Below are positions 3,238 to 47,078 of a stretch of DNA of 64,000 bases, piece after piece. The notes beneath the pieces are model-generated. The model was not told the origin of the DNA. It saw only the letters and a program-made list of their open reading frames with translations, and did not search any database. Source of the DNA: Escherichia coli (GTDB taxonomy: Bacteria > Pseudomonadota > Gammaproteobacteria > Enterobacterales > Enterobacteriaceae); assembly GCF_003018255.1 (NCBI RefSeq), contig NZ_CP027440.1; one strand, 5' to 3'. Numbering within the stretch: position 1 is the stretch's first letter; every line of letters begins with the position of its first letter. A program made the position numbers and the translations under genes.

Positions 3238-4098
3238 TTAATTATGATTACGCATTACCCCTTCCTGAACGGTCGAGGCAACCAGCACGCCATCCTGGGT
3301 ATAAAACTCACCGCGCACAAAGCCGCGAGCGCTGGACGCCGAGGTGCTCTCCACGCTATACAGCAGCCATTCATTCAAATTAAACGGGCGATGGAACCAC
3401 ATGGAATGGTCAATGGTGGCAATCTGAATCCCCGGTTCGAGAAAACCGATGCCGTGCGGCTGTAAAGCTACCGGCAGGAAATTAAGATCAGAAGCGTAAC
3501 CGAGCAGATACTGATGAACGCGCAGATCATCCGGCACGTTACCATTTGCGCGGATCCACACCTGACGATGCGGTTCTGCGACGTGCCCTTTCAGTGGGTT
3601 ATGAAACTCCACCGGACGGACTTCAAGCGGACGATCGCAGATGAATTTATCTTTCAGCACTGGCGGCAGCAGGTGCGCCAGCGATTGGGCGATTTGCGTT
3701 TCCGAAGGCAGGCCATCAGGCGCTGGCGCGGACGGCATTGTTTTTTGATGTTCGAAACCCGCTTCTGGTGCCTGGAAAGAGGCAGTCATATAAAAAATCG
3801 GTTTGCCGTTTTGAATAGCAGCAACCCGGCGGGCGCTGAAGCTGTTACCGTCACGCAGCGTTTCGACATCATAAATAATCGGCTTCTTACTATCGCCTGG
3901 GCGAAGAAAGTAGCTGTGAAACGAATGTACCAGCCGCTCTTCAGGGACGGTCTCTTTTGCAGCATACAAGGCCTGACCCACGACCTGGCCGCCAAACACC
4001 TGGCGTAAACCTAAATCTTCACTCTGGCCGCGAAAGAGTCCTTCCTCAATTTTTTCCAGATTTAACAATGTCAGTAAATTTTTTAGCGCCTGACTCAT
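3238..4098 (-). CDS. tesB: Acyl-CoA thioesterase II
   Basis: Product [31 protein letters not shown]...; start taken at internal Met of ORF 3238..4182. Confidence 0.9.
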
Positions 4099-7714: not shown

Positions 7715-8185
7715 TTAAGATGTTGATTCGGCGCGAGCGAGGGTAAAAATATCGTAAAAAGATAGTTCACCTTTACGGACGATCATTTTTTGCAGTTGTT
7801 CTTTATGAACATCCGCGACACGCGGAGAGTTCAGGATGGCTTCAACTAGCGCGGCAGGTACAAAGCGCGTGTTGTACCATTCGCCGTTATAGCAAACGCG
7901 GAAATCCAGCACGTCGATATCTTCATAGCGGTAGCGTGGGTAGACATCGAAAAAGAAGAAACCATTAAGCAGGATAAATAATACAACCAGTAGCCAGACA
8001 GAGCCTGAAAGCGTTTCGGACTGCAACATCACTGCCAGGGTGGCAAAAAAAGCAACGTACATACCGATAAACAACCCCGGATGTTTACGGATAAAACTGA
8101 TACTAAAGCGGGGTTTGTTGTCGCGTTTTTCGCGGGTATTTAGAGACTCAATTGTTTCGGTCAGCAGGCGTTGTATTTCGGTCAT
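7715..8185 (-). CDS. ylaC: Inner membrane protein YlaC
   Basis: Product [22 protein letters not shown]... with two TM helices; internal start of ORF 7715..8224. Confidence 0.8.
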
Positions 8186-8300
8186 CGTTTGCCTTCGTGG
8201 TATCTGCAACTTTCCAGGGAACACCCTATTTTAACGTGGGAATAGTAGAGGGAAAGTAACAGATTTACCACAATTTTGCATAACAGTTGCGAAAAACCGA

Positions 8301-8852
8301 TTACAATTTTTTAATTATTCTGGCTGGATTACCGCCCACGACAACGTTGTCCGGGACATCTTTTGTGACAACTGCACCTGAGGCTACCACGACGTTATCA
8401 CCAATGGTCACACCAGGGTTAATGACCGCACGTCCGCCAATCCAGACGTTATTACCGATGGTGACGGGTTTCCCCAGTTCAGCACCGCTATTACGTGCTA
8501 CAGGGTCGATGGGATGTGTTGCCGTGTAGATATGAACGCCTGGTGCCAACATACAGTTATCACCAATGCGAATAGGGCAGACATCAAGCATCACGCAATC
8601 GAAGTTGGCGAAAAAATTATTGCCGAGAAAAATGTTATAACCATAGTCACAGCGAAACGTTGGCTCAATATAAGCCTCTGTCACCTGACCGAATAAATCA
8701 GCAAGAATTTGCTGGCGTAATGTGTGCTCTTCCGCCAGGGAATGATTGTATCGGTGAATAAGCCGACGAGCGCGCAGGCGATCGCGAGATAACGCCTCAT
8801 CTGCCGAGTGATACAACTCACCAGCAATCATCTTTTCTTTTTCTGTGCTCAT
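8301..8852 (-). CDS. maa: Maltose O-acetyltransferase (hexapeptide-repeat)
   Basis: 183-aa product with left-handed beta-helix hexapeptide repeats. Confidence 0.9.
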
Positions 8853-9024
8853 TACTGACCTCCGGTTGCTGAAAATGCGGCAACACAGTAAGACGAAAAG
8901 TCAGTGAAGAGAACGTTCCCATTACATCTGTGTGATGAAGATCACATAGGGTATGCCTTCATGGCGAAAGAATTATAAAACTCTTAATAAACAGCCGGTT
9001 ATAGCTCCGAAAGCGAGTTATTTA

Positions 9025-9243
9025 TTAGCGAATAAATTTCCATACTGAGGAAGGGATCTTGTCGTACAGTTTATTCATGGTCAATTCGGCGAGGCGGTGA
9101 TCTGCGGCTGAGTAAAATACCGCCAGTTCATTATCTGATAATTCGTATTTATTTTTCTCGATAACACGCTCCAGCGTGTCAATTGTCTGGCAACGACGTA
9201 AACGCATTAAATAATCGGTTTTTGTTAAAGGTTTTTCGGACAT
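9025..9243 (-). CDS. hha: Haemolysin expression-modulating protein Hha
   Basis: 72-aa product [72 protein letters not shown]; internal start of ORF 9025..9489. Confidence 0.95.
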
Positions 9244-9268
9244 ACTTCTACCCATGGTTGTAATAATT

Positions 9269-9643
9269 CTAACAAGATAAACTCGCAGGATTCTCTTTCG
9301 TCGCATTGACAAAACAACGGAATAGTCGATTACCTGACTTCCGCCATTTCTGAAGATCCTGCATATTAATACCATAACTACTGAACAACATAAAGGTGTC
9401 ATCCAGATATTCGTCGATCTGCTCAATGAGCTTATTGTCTTCATTATACTTAATTTTGTAATTAAGTGCGAAGGTCGCAATATGCTCAATCAGTTCATTC
9501 AACTGGAGGTTGATCGCCGAGGTTGGGTCGTTAACCCAGCCATGATTGCTTTCTTCAAGGTTTGCAAGACAGTCATGATACAGGGTTTCACAGAGAAACT
9601 TAAGCTGCGCGATATCATGTCTTTTGGGTGAGTATTCATCCAT
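9269..9643 (-). CDS. tomB: Hha toxicity modulator TomB
   Basis: 124-aa ORF directly upstream of hha, recognised TomB (YbaJ) sequence. Confidence 0.9.
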
Positions 9644-42726: not shown

Positions 42727-42850
42727 CATCTCTCTGTGCGCAGTACCTCCTGTATTATTGTGGTGGCGGTCGATATTCGCACTGGCAAAAAAACGTGCTT
42801 GAATATCTGTTGAAACCCTTTAACAAAGCACAGGAGGCGTTGCGCGAACG

Positions 42851-43258
42851 ATGAACATTAGCGATGTAGCAAAAATTACCGGCCTGACCAGCAAAGCCAT
42901 TCGCTTCTATGAAGAGAAGGGGCTGGTGACGCCGCCGATGCGCAGCGAAAACGGTTATCGCACCTACACGCAGCAGCATCTCAACGAACTGACCTTACTG
43001 CGCCAGGCACGCCAGGTGGGCTTTAACCTGGAGGAGAGCGGCGAACTGGTGAATCTGTTTAACGATCCGCAGCGTCACAGCGCCGACGTCAAACGTCGTA
43101 CGCTGGAGAAAGTGGCGGAGATCGAACAGCATATCGAAGAACTGCAATCCATGCGTAACCAGCTGCTGGCGCTGGCGAATGCCTGCCCCGGTGATGACAG
43201 CGCCGACTGCCCGATTATCGAAAATCTCTCCGGCTGCTGTCATCATCGGGCGGGGTGA
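42851..43258 (+). CDS. cueR: Copper-responsive MerR-family regulator
   Basis: 135-aa product [26 protein letters not shown]... with C-terminal metal-binding [10 protein letters not shown]. Confidence 0.97.
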
Positions 43259-43989
43259 TTAAGGCTTGCGAAAATAGTCGTCCATTATTTTCGTCAGCTC
43301 CGGACGTTCCCCGTCATCATTGATGGCAAAATCCAGAAAAAAAGCATCTGCTTGCGGCGTTCGGTTTTGCGCCATCAACCGGAAGGTGAGGGGGCCTGAC
43401 CAGGTTTCGGATGGGCTGATGTGCTTATCAGGGCCGAAACTCTCCCATGCGTTGGGCGGTAATGTTTTGCACGCGGTGAGTTTTGGTATGTGGTATTGCA
43501 GCTCTGTTTTGTGCAGACATTCCCCGCCAGGAAATACCAGGGTTTGTTGCTCATCATTAAAATGGGTTGCCGTGCTGAGCACCAGTGTTTTGAGCGGTCG
43601 CCCTTCCAGCGCGGCGGCAGTAGCCTTATGGTGTCCGTCGAGCAGAACGCAGAGATAGGAATCAGGGAGATACCAGGCCAGAGCGCGGGCGATTCCAGTT
43701 TTCGAGAGCAGACAAAAACCGGGCGGCTCCCTGTTCACCCTCCGCAAAACCGCTGTAGACAAATTCCGCACAGGTAGGGCAACCAGCCTCGGACCAGAAA
43801 CGTATTAACGGGACATCCTTGCCAGCAGAGCGAATGGATAAGACCGTGCGAGTGCGGATCGTAAATCACACATTGACGCAGAAATCCTTTCCCGGACTTC
43901 ACCGAAAAAATGACGCCCGCAGCGGTATTTTTCAGCAGACGTACTTCAGGTTTTCGAAAGGGGAAAAAGCATGGCCACTCCTTAGCCAA
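43259..43989 (-). pseudogene. Hypothetical gene split into two overlapping reading frames (43735..43989 then 43259..43804); apparent frameshift
   Basis: Two minus-strand ORFs in different frames overlap at 43738-43804; the downstream frame is open upstream of its first start codon; no recognisable family. Confidence 0.4.
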
Positions 43990-44060
43990 AATTTCAGTTC
44001 CCTGAACTGTGCCAGAAAATTACGCTGGTGACTATTGCTCTGGAAATGGAAACAGTGTCC

Positions 44061-44267
44061 TTACCCATTAATCCCCGTTTGTACCGAAAGAATATGTTGC
44101 AAACTTTCTACCATAATGCGCCCCGACTGAAATAAGCCTTCCTGGATTTCATTGTTAACATTCACAGCGTGAACCAGGGAGGCTAATAACACCACTTGCA
44201 AGAAGGCAAAAATAAACGCACCGATAATCATAATATGCGTCAGGGGGATTTTCCTTTGCTCCTTCAT
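44061..44267 (-). CDS. Small single-pass membrane protein (68 aa), hypothetical
   Basis: Start overlaps the upstream lipoprotein stop (ATGA); one hydrophobic helix IMIIGAFIFAFLQVVLLASLV. Confidence 0.5.
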   Translation of the reverse strand: MKEQRKIPLTHIMIIGAFIFAFLQVVLLASLVHAVNVNNEIQEGLFQSGRIMVESLQHILSVQTGING

Positions 44268-44686
44268 TTTAAATAACCCACAAACTGGCCTTCTTTCATT
44301 AAGGCGACTTTTCCTGTGTGATGATAAACAATGACATTATACAGACCCGACTGATAAACCGTGGCATCGGCATTATCTTCATCTATGGCACATAATGAAT
44401 CATTGAGATAAGCAAAATTCTTACTACTCATTCTAAAGGTCATGCCAAATCCTTTATAAATGGCTTTTTTTGCCGCCTGGGCATGTTGTGCGGCTTCTGC
44501 ATTTTTAAATGCCTGCGCTTCAGAAGCACTTAAAATAGCCGTCTGGCGCTGCTGTTCTGCGAGATAACAGGTGTCATGGCTGACGCCCTGCGCCTGACAA
44601 TCTGCGATGCGGGAAGCGGGTGAGCTACAGCCAGCCAGTAATATAACCGCCAGCAGGGAAAAGGATTTAATGGAGCTATTCATCAT
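44264..44686 (-). CDS. Putative lipoprotein (140 aa), hypothetical
   Basis: Signal peptide with lipobox LLAGC; 4 Cys; downstream of the autotransporter gene on the same strand. Confidence 0.6.
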   Translation of the reverse strand: MMNSSIKSFSLLAVILLAGCSSPASRIADCQAQGVSHDTCYLAEQQRQTAILSASEAQAFKNAEAAQHAQAAKKAIYKGFGMTFRMSSKNFAYLNDSLCAIDEDNADATVYQSGLYNVIVYHHTGKVALMKEGQFVGYLK

Positions 44687-44771
44687 TGTTAACCTTAAAT
44701 AATGTGCGAATTAATGAAGAGGTGAAACCCGGCAAGCTTCCTTGCTCTTATTTATATTGAGGATTGAAATA

Positions 44772-45788
44772 TTAGAACGAATATCCTACGCCGACACCTG
44801 CGCCGAAATCAGATTGCGTATCCGCAGAAATACCGGCTTTAAGTACCGTATGCGTTCCGGCATTAAAAGATGTTCCGACAGACACCGCAGATTCACCGTT
44901 GAAGGTTCCCGCTCCCGCTGACACCATCATCACGTCACCGGTTTTAACCTGTGGTTGTGAGGCGATAGCGATGGCAGATGCAGTTCCCGCATTGGCTTCT
45001 TTACGGTTGTCCTCAACTTCGTTTTTCAGCGAACTGTAATGGTTATTGAGCGTGTTAATTTGTTGGCTGTTATCTGCGACCCGTTTTTGCGTGTTGCTTA
45101 ACTGTTGCTGCGTTTGTGCGGAATCTTGTCTCAGACTTTCAATTTGCTCATGTGCCTGGACAGACTTCTGCGCCAGACTTTGCATTTGTTTATCGTATTG
45201 AGCCCTTTCTTTTTGCTGTTGTGCTGCCACATCGGTTGTCAGTGCATTCATTTTCTGCCCTTGTTCCGTGGTAGTGCGCTGATTAGCCTCATTTTGAGCC
45301 GCCAGTCTGGCATTAATCATCTCCTGATAATGCGCAGTATTTTGCGTATCTCCAGTCGCGGCGAGCGTTTTTTGTGTGGCTACGATCTGCGCCTGTTGCT
45401 CTGTAATTTGCGTTTGCTGGGCATCAGTTACCGCAGACTGTCGGGCGTTGATCATGCTCTGATAACGGGCAGGTGTCTGTGTATCACCTGTAGCGGCAAC
45501 GGTTTTTTGTCCTGCGTCAGGATCTGTCTGGACAGTGGGAGTCTGAGTGGTATCAGGTGTTTCAGAAGGGATGTAGTGATGTTCAGTCAAATAGGTATAC
45601 GCAGCGGGGCTGTTGTCTGTGCGTTCTAAAAAGCGGGTAATCTTCTGCTCAATCTCCGATTGCGACATGCCAGAGTTAATGGCTGAAAGCTCTGTTGCCG
45701 CCGCTTCAATGGTATCACCAGCTAAAACAACAGGGCTGGATGTTGCTGAAATTATGAGTGCCAGTAAAGCTACGTTTACAGTTTTCAT
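44772..45788 (-). CDS. Trimeric autotransporter adhesin-like protein (type Vc, YadA-like C-terminal anchor), 338 aa
   Basis: Signal peptide MKTVNVALLALIISATSSPVVLA; Gln-rich coiled-coil stalk with a tandem repeat (ATGDTQ..YQ.MINAR); C-terminal anchor ...AGTASAIAIASQPQ...GAGVGVGYSF ending in aromatic residue. Confidence 0.75.
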   Translation of the reverse strand: MKTVNVALLALIISATSSPVVLAGDTIEAAATELSAINSGMSQSEIEQKITRFLERTDNSPAAYTYLTEHHYIPSETPDTTQTPTVQTDPDAGQKTVAATGDTQTPARYQSMINARQSAVTDAQQTQITEQQAQIVATQKTLAATGDTQNTAHYQEMINARLAAQNEANQRTTTEQGQKMNALTTDVAAQQQKERAQYDKQMQSLAQKSVQAHEQIESLRQDSAQTQQQLSNTQKRVADNSQQINTLNNHYSSLKNEVEDNRKEANAGTASAIAIASQPQVKTGDVMMVSAGAGTFNGESAVSVGTSFNAGTHTVLKAGISADTQSDFGAGVGVGYSF

Positions 45789-46154
45789 TCATTTTCTCTT
45801 GTTCAAAATAAGTCGCATTAATGTTTCTATAAGAAACAAATAATATTATTTTAAGAAATAAACTGCGTTGCAATTTAATCGAAATCTACGCCGCCATTTG
45901 TGTGATGTAAAGCGCATTTTTGTCTGGTGTAAGCGTAAACACCACCAATAAGAAACAAAAAATGTTTCTTATATAAATAAAATCGAAAATCATTTTGTGC
46001 TCTTTCAATGTAAAAAAGAGTAAAGACTTGTTTTGATAAGCGAAATAAATTCTGTTTCTGGACTAAACGTGAAGCGGTTCCTGATGTGTGCTAAAATGCG
46101 TTTCTTTGATAAATCTCAATTTTTAAGAGGTTTACGCCAGGCAGGAAAATTTAA

Positions 46155-46517
46155 ATGAATGAATTTGAGAAGATTTTTAATGAAATGAATCTGGACCGGG
46201 CATTGTTACCGATCCTTTTTCGTTCGAACCGGTCGACAGTGTGGAAGTATTTAAGCGGCGATAGTACGGCTCCTGCCTCTGCCATGTCGCTGATCATGCT
46301 GTTGCAGTTGATCCAGAAACGAAACCCCGATCTGTTAGCCGAATGGTTAACGCTTTCTGATTTCACCATTCCGCCAGAAGTTTACCTGGACCAACCTGAT
46401 TACTGGAAAGGGTGGGTGTATACCCAACACAAGGTCAATAAAAACGTCCTGGAATATCTAAAAAAACACTATCCGGATGAAGACCAAAAAAGTATGGGTA
46501 AAGGCCGGGAAGAGTAA
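46155..46517 (+). CDS. Hypothetical protein (120 aa), divergent from the autotransporter operon
   Basis: ORF with ATG start after an AT-rich 365-bp intergenic region; no family recognised. Confidence 0.4.
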   Translation: MNEFEKIFNEMNLDRALLPILFRSNRSTVWKYLSGDSTAPASAMSLIMLLQLIQKRNPDLLAEWLTLSDFTIPPEVYLDQPDYWKGWVYTQHKVNKNVLEYLKKHYPDEDQKSMGKGREE

Positions 46518-46519
46518 TT

Positions 46520-46620
46520 TTGCCTCTACTCGGCTATATGCCGGATGCGGCGCAAGCGCCTTATCTGGCCTACGATTCGGGCATATTTTGTAGGCATGAT
46601 AAGACGCGCCAGCGTCGCAT
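46520..46620. repeat. REP/BIME elements (two inverted REP units) at the island/ybbJ junction
   Basis: gccggatgcggcgcaagcgccttatctggcctac ... gtaggcatgataagacgcgccagcgtcgcatcaggc. Confidence 0.75.
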
Positions 46621-47078
46621 CAGGCGATGACCGCACGGATAATCAGCGTTATCCCTTCTATCGCAATCACCTCAACATGCGTACCTGCACTGAGATCCTC
46701 GCTGGCGCTGACAGGCCATGAACTGTCACCGACGCGCATATGACCACGCCCGTTGACCAGCGGAGATTCCAGAACAAAACGTCGGCCAATCAACTGCTGC
46801 CCGCGCTGGTTTAAATGACTGTCGCTGTGCTTTTGTTCGCGCACCCGCCGCGACAACCATTTCCACCACAGCCAGGCGGCGAGCAGCGTCAGGACGGCAA
46901 ACATTACCCCTTGCCACTCCCAACCCAGCGGCAGCAACCAGACCACCAGACCGGTAATCACCGCTGCCACGCCGCTCCACAACAGATAACCATTGCCGCC
47001 CAACATCTCGGCTGCCAGCAGCAAACCGCCGAGACTTAGCCAGAAAATATGTGGATGAACGACCATTAACTCCATCAT
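46620..47078 (-). CDS. ybbJ: NfeD-family inner membrane protein
   Basis: 152-aa product overlapping qmcA by 4 nt. Confidence 0.85.

What the first reader, a model, noticed from the sequence alone, without database searches (positions are those of the whole stretch)
43259..43989. Unknown gene split by an apparent frameshift, abutting cueR
Two minus-strand ORFs in different frames overlap at 43738-43804, and the downstream frame is open for 11 codons upstream of its first start codon, as expected for one ~245-aa gene broken by a single frameshift. The product (…CVIYDPHSHGLIHSLCWQGCP… / …LLDGHHKATAAALEGRPLK…FPGGECLHKTEL…) matches no family I know. It may be a decaying accessory gene or a sequencing error.
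Basis: seen in the sequence. Interest (0 to 1): 0.45.

Follow-up and report, generated by a model that had tools for sequence, protein, structure and literature searches.

The report
Decayed remnant of 407-aa accessory gene
The two overlapping reading frames next to the copper regulator gene cueR are the wreck of one 407-amino-acid E. coli accessory gene, killed by two internal deletions and two single-base insertions; it is an ordinary, already annotated pseudogene, not a sequencing error.

Summary
The window is E. coli chromosome (copA-glsA-ybaT-cueR … ybbJ-qmcA-fetAB). The two minus-strand ORFs exist exactly as described, and RefSeq/PGAP already marks this spot as a "hypothetical protein, frameshifted" pseudogene. 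The parent gene is not about 245 aa with one frameshift at 43738-43804. It is a 407-aa gene that is intact in CFT073, Nissle 1917, ATCC 25922 and O145:H28.

The window copy carries four lesions:
- +1 nt in the T/C tract just after the true ATG (43972-43970)
- +1 A at 43820/43819
- a 287-nt deletion at 43692|43691, between imperfect 15-nt direct repeats
- a 225-nt in-frame deletion at 43396|43395

In the "overlap" region the ancestral protein is encoded in the third frame. The same lesions occur in independent complete genomes (E2348/69, APEC O2-211), so this is not a sequencing error. Of 5,426 complete E. coli genomes, 965 carry the gene and only 271 at full length.

The intact protein belongs to an uncharacterised family (Salmonella STM0660; 785 clusters). 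It has no Pfam or NCBIfam match. The predicted structure has a ParB/Srx-like nucleotide-binding core (DGHHK motif) and a C-terminal helical-repeat domain. The interest is low.

The parts
43259..43972 (-). Whole pseudogene remnant, from ancestral ATG to stop: 714 nt left of a 1224-nt gene
   Evidence: Global alignment to the intact CFT073 gene (L002 2998-4221) gives 712 aligned nt with 5 mismatches. PGAP annotates it as 'hypothetical protein, frameshifted'.
43978..43983 (-). Ribosome-binding site AAGGAG, 5 nt upstream of the ancestral ATG (43972-43970).
   Evidence: Sequence read. The alignment with CFT073 and O145:H28 shows GGCTAAGGAGT..CATG conserved.
43960..43969 (-). Lesion 1: homopolymer tract C-T5-C4, 10 nt where intact copies have 9. 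This +1 puts the ATG out of frame, giving MLFPLSKT*.
   Evidence: (start sequences) and the frame-1 translation.
43821..43968 (-).
   Evidence: tblastn with the CFT073 protein.
43819..43820 (-). Lesion 2: AA where intact copies have a single A (CTGGCAAGG against CTGGCAGG), a +1 frameshift
   Evidence: 'ins after cft 151 (+1: A)'.
43692..43819 (-). Segment encoding ancestral residues 51-93, including the conserved CPTC motif.
   Evidence: tblastn frame -3, 43820-43674, 92% identity to residues 51-99.
43677..43691 (-). Lesion 3 junction: a single hybrid copy (CGCCCGCGCTCTGGC) of an imperfect 15-nt direct repeat. The 287 nt between the two repeats (gene nt 280-566, residues ~94-189) are deleted, which shifts the frame. 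The deletion removes the YPTDGNGHFFW motif and the ParB Box I-like PxQ motif.
   Evidence: The intact gene has CGCCCGTGGTCTGGC and CGCCCGCGCTCTGGC 287 nt apart.
43396..43691 (-). It contains the LLDGHHKATAAA motif (DGHHK = 43639-43625).
   Evidence: tblastn at 97% identity, E = 4e-72. Motif invariance.
43395..43396 (-). Lesion 4 junction: 225-nt in-frame deletion (gene nt 863-1087, 75 codons, about residues 288-363) that removes most of the C-terminal helical-repeat domain. No flanking repeat.
43259..43395 (-). Segment encoding ancestral residues 364-407 plus the stop codon (43261-43259), abutting the cueR stop
   Evidence: tblastn at 100% identity over 44 aa.
42851..43258 (+). cueR, the convergent neighbour. 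It is intact and not part of the pseudogene.
   Evidence: ORF; annotation.

Best explanation
Window 43259-43972 (minus strand) is a fixed, non-functional remnant of a 407-aa cytoplasmic accessory gene. That gene sits between cueR and ybbJ in a minority of E. coli.

Shown:
- Relative to the intact gene of CFT073 and O145:H28, the window copy has four lesions: one extra base in the T/C homopolymer just after the ATG, one extra A 150 nt further on, a 287-nt deletion, and a separate 225-nt in-frame deletion.
- The 287-nt deletion has end points in a pair of imperfect 15-nt direct repeats.
- The ancestral reading frame therefore wanders through all three frames. No product longer than a fragment can be made from the ancestral start. 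The first in-frame stop comes after 8 codons.

Inferred:
- The 287-nt deletion arose by slipped-strand or illegitimate recombination between the repeats. Two junction alleles exist in E. coli. Type A crosses over in the first 6 nt of the repeat (the window, E2348/69, APEC O2-211, LF82). Type B crosses over in the last 6 nt (ST131 and others). This points to either two independent events or one unrepaired heteroduplex.
- The single-base insertions are later decay.
- The intact protein is most likely a nucleotide-binding or phosphotransfer protein. It appears to be built on a ParB/Srx-type core: a Box I-like LPxQ..F..R and a Box II-like LLDGHH(K/R)AxAAA. Before the core lie a beta-rich N-terminal domain with a CPTC motif and a YPTDGNGHFFW motif. 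After it lies a HEAT-like helical-repeat domain.
- Its cellular role is unknown. It is a stand-alone gene with no conserved partner.
- In the window copy, half of the ParB/Srx core and most of the helical-repeat domain are gone, so no function is expected.
For: Intact orthologues at the same locus:
- CFT073 WP_000492611.1 (407 aa) and O145:H28 WP_000898667.1 (407 aa).

Lesion map:
- Multiple alignment, tblastn and global alignment, repeat sequences, and 12-strain allele comparison.

Population:
- 965 of 5,426 complete genomes carry the gene, and 271 have at least 80% of its full length.
- PGAP marks the deleted copies as frameshifted pseudogenes in every strain checked.
- K-12 lacks the gene, and ybbJ abuts cueR there.
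- Intact copies are under purifying selection. dN/dS between CFT073 and O145:H28 is 0.195.

Family:
- 117 homologues, most of them full length, at E down to 1e-284 in Escherichia, Salmonella, Superficieibacter and Clostridia.
- 785 clusters at 50% identity.
- Invariant G130, F135 and D207-G208-H209-H210.

Structure and fold:
- AlphaFold model with pLDDT 89.7 and pTM 0.89.
- The only credible Foldseek hits are sulfiredoxin (prob 0.82), SerK (0.69), Noc, ParB and 1vk1.
- hhalign against a ParB N-domain profile gives P = 0.0016 over 64 columns, in register with Box I and Box II.

Context:
- No conserved neighbours in five unrelated contexts.
Against: - Nothing here tests nucleotide binding.
- I cannot exclude that the 170-aa ORF (GTG 43771) is still translated into a fragment.
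- The order and number of deletion events is inferred from 12 strains only.
- Allele frequencies are extrapolated from evenly sampled rows, not counted.
Confidence: 0.93

Rival explanations
1. One reading: one gene of about 245 aa broken by a single frameshift inside 43738-43804. Joining the two ORFs there would restore the protein.
For: Two overlapping ORFs in different frames. PGAP also uses the word 'frameshifted'.
Against: All full-length homologues are about 400-460 aa. The alignment to the intact orthologue shows two deletions totalling 512 nt and two +1 insertions, none of them inside 43738-43804. In that interval the ancestral protein is read in the third frame. A joined 242-aa product matched no family.
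Confidence: 0.02
2. A sequencing or assembly error in an otherwise intact gene.
For: Two of the four lesions sit in short homopolymer runs (T5C4 and AA), which is typical of some platforms.
Against: The same four lesions occur in independently sequenced complete genomes, including Sanger-era E2348/69 and APEC O2-211. Three genomes match 901 nt covering the locus (43200-44100) at 100%, and 131 match the 729-nt remnant at 99% or more. The 287-nt and 225-nt deletions cannot be base-calling errors and are shared by roughly 700 genomes.
Confidence: 0.01
3. The remnant has been recycled. The 170-aa ORF (43259-43771), or the 84-aa ORF, is a genuine new small gene that keeps part of the ParB/Srx core and the C-terminal helices.
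For: The 170-aa ORF is open and retains the invariant DGHHK motif. The double-deletion allele is very common, at roughly 700 genomes by estimate. In the window allele the net change is a whole number of codons (714 nt).
Against: The first 27 residues of the 170-aa ORF are out-of-frame relative to the ancestor and follow no recognisable RBS. Box I and the preceding strands of the fold are deleted. Different lineages carry different extra indels near the start, as expected for neutral decay. Type-B alleles are 712-713 nt, not a whole number of codons. PGAP calls all of them pseudogenes.
Confidence: 0.04
4. Programmed ribosomal frameshifting or another recoding event restores a full product.
For: Overlapping frames exist, and a homopolymer tract lies near the start.
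Against: Three separate frame changes would be needed. Even then 170 codons, including invariant motifs, are physically absent. Intact orthologues need no frameshift.
Confidence: 0.005

Closest known systems
WP_000492611.1 (E. coli CFT073, Nissle 1917) and WP_000898667.1 (O145:H28) 'hypothetical protein', 407 aa; Salmonella orthologue STM0660 ('putative cytoplasmic protein')
   Same: Same locus (cueR | gene | … ybbJ) in E. coli. The four retained segments are 92-100% identical at protein level and 99.3% identical at DNA level (5 mismatches in 712 nt). The STM0660 identity was verified by mapping the published primers onto the Salmonella gene.
   Different: The window copy lacks 512 nt and has two +1 insertions, so it is a pseudogene. 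The Salmonella gene sits at another locus, rihA-hscC. The only experimental hint is a listing under 'reduced swimming only' in a deletion-library screen (PMC4219756). I did not check whether that mutant was complemented.
ParB/Srx superfamily (ParB N-terminal CTPase domain PF02195; sulfiredoxin; free serine kinase SerK; SbnI; KorB; PadC)
   Different: No member hits PF02195. The family therefore lies outside the PF02195-based survey of the fold (PMC12704722). There is no HTH domain, no ParA partner and no parS context. Lys usually replaces the Box II Arg. The N-terminal beta domain with CPTC, the YPTDGNGHFFW motif and the C-terminal HEAT-like repeats are all additional. In the window copy the Box I half is deleted.
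Ordinary E. coli accessory-gene pseudogenes produced by deletion between short direct repeats
   Same: The 287-nt deletion is bounded by 15-nt imperfect direct repeats, with one hybrid copy left at the junction. Homopolymer indels have accumulated afterwards.
   Different: Two junction alleles of the same-size deletion coexist in the species, together with a shared second deletion. This implies recurrence, unrepaired heteroduplex, and/or inter-lineage recombination.

Membership tests
STM0660 / WP_000492611 family (uncharacterised ~400-460-aa proteins) | Significant collinear homology to full-length members | tested here: met
   tblastn gives four collinear segments, E = 1e-28 to 4e-72, 92-100% identity. 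The family is defined.
STM0660 / WP_000492611 family (uncharacterised ~400-460-aa proteins) | Uninterrupted ORF of about 400 aa containing all invariant motifs (CPTC, YPTDGNGHFFW, PxQ, LLDGHHK) | tested here: not met
   Residues ~94-189 (YPTDGNGHFFW, PxQ) and ~288-363 are deleted. The remaining segments lie in three different frames. It is a pseudogene of the family, not a functional member.
ParB/Srx superfamily (tested on the intact orthologue) | ParB/Srx core fold | tested here: inconclusive
ParB/Srx superfamily (tested on the intact orthologue) | Phosphate-binding Box II motif (GxxRxxA / DGxHR) at the strand-helix junction, plus Box I | tested here: met
   Invariant D207-G208-H209-H210, followed by K/R and AxA. 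hhalign places it on GERRfRAA, and places PxQ..F on NPYQPRK.F, at P = 0.0016. Secondary structure: E202-207 then H209-218 then E222-229.
ParB/Srx superfamily (tested on the intact orthologue) | Match to the curated model PF02195 (ParBc) | tested here: not met
   0 of 68 members hit PF02195 at E <= 0.1. There is no hit for CFT073 or O145 at E <= 10.
ParB/Srx superfamily (tested on the intact orthologue) | NTP binding, hydrolysis or phosphotransfer | not testable with these tools
   This needs biochemistry, for example DRaCALA with CTP, ATP and GTP as in PMC12704722.
Canonical partition ParB | HTH DNA-binding domain, C-terminal dimerisation domain, adjacent parA | tested here: not met
   No PF17762 or PF23552 hit. 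No parA gene in six genomic contexts.
Programmed-frameshift genes | A single conserved shift site, with orthologues that share the two-frame organisation | tested here: not met
   Orthologues are single ORFs. The window copy has four lesions and three frames.
Known anti-phage defence proteins (PADLOC) | Match to a defence-system HMM | tested here: not met
   0 families at E <= 10.

The most novel reading that the evidence does not exclude
The parent family (STM0660/WP_000492611; 785 clusters across Enterobacteriaceae and Clostridia) may be a stand-alone ParB/Srx-fold enzyme or nucleotide switch that has not been described. It combines a CxxC (CPTC) motif, a YPTDGNGHFFW motif and a HEAT-like domain, and PF02195-based surveys do not detect it. 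Its repeated loss in successful extra-intestinal E. coli lineages (ST131, E2348/69, APEC), through a deletion hotspot between 15-nt repeats, may reflect selection against the gene rather than neutral decay.
Probability: 0.25. Interest if true: 0.4.

Novelty: already known. Interest (0 to 1): 0.13.

Why it matters
For the window it matters little. This is a dead accessory gene that RefSeq already flags as a frameshifted pseudogene, and its neighbour cueR is unaffected.

Three modest points are worth keeping:
- **Method.** Two overlapping ORFs do not mean "one frameshift here". Only comparison with an intact orthologue showed that 42% of the gene is missing and that the overlap region is read in a third frame.
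- **Population.** The locus is polymorphic in E. coli. It is absent (K-12), intact (CFT073, Nissle, O145:H28), carries the 287-nt deletion alone (LF82), or carries both deletions (ST131, EPEC, APEC). It could serve as a lineage marker.
- **Family.** The intact protein family has no curated annotation. It probably adds one more stand-alone branch to the ParB/Srx nucleotide-binding fold.

Tried and rejected
- **Profile searches.** The two ORFs and a conceptually joined 242-aa product gave nothing against Pfam. The full-length orthologues gave nothing against Pfam, NCBIfam, PADLOC or PHROGs. A scan of all 68 family members gave only scattered noise.
- **PDB by sequence profile.** The whole family and the ParB-like sub-region gave only chance hits, such as troponin C and designed repeat proteins.
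- **AFDB Foldseek.** This library was unavailable.
- **hhalign against human sulfiredoxin alone.** No meaningful alignment.
- **Gene neighbourhood.** Five distant homologues showed no conserved partner, so guilt by association failed.
- **N-terminal extensions.** Three longer members (P0209, P0220, P0278) have no Pfam domain in their extensions.
- **Literature.** The accession numbers gave no hits. STM0660 appears only as a typing locus, in a motility screen and in an expression list.
- **Promoter and terminator scan.** Not above the shuffled expectation.
- **Rejected readings.** Single frameshift, sequencing error, programmed frameshift, two genuine small genes, canonical ParB.

Full report
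**1. Where we are**

The window is E. coli chromosome. Around the finding lie copA, glsA, ybaT and cueR (42851-43258, + strand). Next comes an accessory island, and then ybbJ, qmcA and fetAB. A 901-nt query covering the locus (43200-44100) is 100% identical in three complete genomes, for example NZ_CP116067.1.

**2. The observation**

It is correct as stated.
- There are two minus-strand ORFs in different frames: 43735-43989 (84 aa, TTG start) and 43259-43771 (170 aa, GTG start).
- The downstream frame is open for 11 further codons, up to 43804.
- The stop codon (43261-43259) abuts the cueR stop codon with no spacer.
- No curated family matches either ORF or a joined product.
- PGAP annotates the identical sequence as "hypothetical protein; frameshifted". 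The existence of a broken gene here is therefore already on record.

**3. What it really is**

A BLAST search of the 729 nt against 5,426 complete E. coli genomes found the region in 965 genomes. In many of them the match was spread over about 1,236 nt in three pieces.

Those genomes carry an intact 1,224-nt gene at the same position, with its stop abutting cueR. It encodes a 407-aa protein (CFT073 WP_000492611.1 and O145:H28 WP_000898667.1). Alignment of the window to these copies shows four lesions:

| # | Lesion | Window position | Consequence |
|---|---|---|---|
| 1 | One extra base in the T/C homopolymer right after the ancestral ATG (43972-43970) | tract 43969-43960, 10 nt instead of 9 | The ATG frame stops after 8 codons (MLFPLSKT*) |
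| 2 | One extra A | 43820/43819 | +1 frameshift |
| 3 | 287-nt deletion (gene nt 280-566, residues ~94-189) | junction 43692\|43691 | Frameshift; conserved motifs lost |
| 4 | 225-nt in-frame deletion (gene nt 863-1087, about residues 288-363) | junction 43396\|43395 | 75 codons lost |

The ancestral protein is therefore encoded as follows:
- residues 51-93 in the third frame (43819-43692);

Both reader ORFs are out-of-frame noise there: the …GCPVNTFLVRGWLPYLCGICLQRFCGG tail and the MRNLSTAVLRRVNREPPGFCLLSKTGI head. The TTG "start" at 43989 reads through the gene's own Shine-Dalgarno sequence (AAGGAG, 43983-43978).

**4. How it was broken**

- The 287-nt deletion is bounded in the intact gene by imperfect 15-nt direct repeats, CGCCCGTGGTCTGGC and CGCCCGCGCTCTGGC. 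The window keeps one copy at 43691-43677. This is the signature of slipped-strand or illegitimate recombination, which is an inference.
- In 12 strains compared, the same-size deletion has two junction alleles:
  - Type A (CGCCCG|CGCTCTGGC) always comes with the extra A. It is found in the window, E2348/69, APEC O2-211 and LF82.
  - Type B (CGCCCGTGGTCTGGC|CTGG) lacks the extra A. It is found in ST131, SK1144, TUM14697 and 1002W03.
- LF82 and one other strain have type A without the 225-nt deletion. Both type A and type B occur with the identical 225-nt deletion, which has no flanking repeat.
- The simplest history is therefore either two crossovers at the same repeat pair or one unrepaired heteroduplex, followed by inter-lineage recombination. 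This is an inference from 12 strains.
- Extra indels near the start differ between lineages, as expected for neutral decay.

**5. It is not an artefact**

The four lesions of the window allele are identical in independently sequenced complete genomes, including E2348/69 and APEC O2-211. 131 genomes match the remnant at 99% or more.

Only 271 of the 965 carrier genomes have at least 80% of the full-length gene. From the evenly sampled rows I estimate these allele numbers, which are estimates and not counts:
- about 100 window-type genomes;
- about 30-50 LF82-type;
- about 580 ST131-type.

K-12 has no trace of the gene. There ybbJ abuts cueR directly.

**6. The parent gene**

- *Selection.* Intact copies are under purifying selection. 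dN/dS between CFT073 and O145:H28 is 0.195.
- *Family size and spread.* The family has 117 homologues, most of them full length, among 5.8 billion clusters. It has 785 representatives at 50% identity, nearly all 400-460 aa. Members occur in Escherichia, E. albertii, Salmonella, Superficieibacter and many Clostridia and Ruminococcaceae.
- *Names.* Sources call it "hypothetical" or "cytoplasmic protein". One UniRef entry says "ParB-like nuclease domain protein".
- *Conserved residues.* Invariant residues are G130, F135 and D207-G208-H209-H210. Near-invariant residues include C64-P-T-C67, the YPTDGNGHFFW block and P169-x-Q171.
- *Salmonella orthologue.* It is STM0660, lying between rihA and hscC. 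I confirmed this by mapping the published STM0660 primers onto the gene. The only phenotype on record is a listing under "reduced swimming only" in a deletion-library screen (PMC4219756).
- *Context.* Gene neighbourhoods of five distant members share nothing. It is a stand-alone gene, often in variable or mobile regions.

**7. Likely mechanism of the intact protein (inferred)**

- The AlphaFold model is confident, with pLDDT 89.7 and pTM 0.89.
- The only Foldseek hits with appreciable probability are sulfiredoxin (0.82), SerK (0.69), Noc, ParB and 1vk1.
- hhalign of the sub-region against a profile of 120 ParB N-domains gives P = 0.0016 over 64 columns, in register. The family's LPxQ..F..R falls on ParB Box I (NPYQPRK.F), and LLDGHHKAtAAA falls on Box II (GERRfRAA).
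- No member reaches PF02195. The family is therefore outside the recent PF02195-based survey of the fold (PMC12704722).
- My best reading, at about 0.6 probability, is a nucleotide-binding or phosphotransfer module of the ParB/Srx type with family-specific additions. The substrate and cellular role are unknown.

**8. Consequence for the window copy**

The 287-nt deletion removes the YPTDGNGHFFW block, Box I and the preceding strands. The 225-nt deletion removes most of the helical-repeat domain. Even a translated 170-aa fragment would have only half of the core. The locus is a dead gene.

**9. Verdict**

The feature is ordinary and already annotated. Interest is low at 0.13. The one mildly novel aspect is the uncharacterised ParB/Srx-like parent family and its recurrent loss.

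Noticed in passing
window 42786-42851 (+), overlapping the cueR start at 42851: This is a relic of the last 22 codons of a HlyD-family type I secretion adaptor. It is 82% identical to residues 370-391 of O145:H28 WP_001014332.1. PGAP flags it as a pseudogene fragment. In O145:H28, intact T1SS genes lie directly upstream of cueR instead of glsA-ybaT.
   Followed up: partly
window 43259-46619: An accessory island lies between cueR and ybbJ and is absent from K-12, where ybbJ abuts cueR. Besides the pseudogene it holds a 68-aa ORF (44061-44267), a lipoprotein (44264-44686), a YadA-family autotransporter adhesin (44772-45788) and a 120-aa ORF (46155-46517). CFT073 has only the 407-aa gene here.
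   Followed up: partly
window 44772-45788 (-): The YadA-like adhesin is 338 aa. It is only about 52% identical to the 436-aa adhesin at the same position in O145:H28, so this surface protein is highly variable. It has internal ATGDTQ…Y(Q/E)xMINAR repeats.
   Followed up: no
window ~46540-46619, just downstream of the ybbJ stop (46620): A REP-like palindromic element (GCCGGATGCGGCG…CGCCTTATC) lies between the island and ybbJ. It is also present in CFT073.
   Followed up: no
window 46620-46645 compared with L020 (K-12) 3402-3430: The last 7 codons of ybbJ differ between K-12 (…LHIRAVSS*) and the window and CFT073 (…LIIRAVIA*). The K-12 junction TGA|TTAAG shares TTAAG with the 3' end of the 407-aa gene. 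This may be the scar of the deletion that removed the island.
   Followed up: no
L010 (Logan SRR5221246 contig) 8001-9275 and surroundings: A distant family member sits inside a conjugative or Tad-pilus region, with TraG/VirD4, TrbL, a prepilin peptidase, RcpC, a T2SSE ATPase, a group II intron reverse transcriptase and a SMODS-SLATT pair nearby. This hints that the family travels on mobile elements.
   Followed up: no
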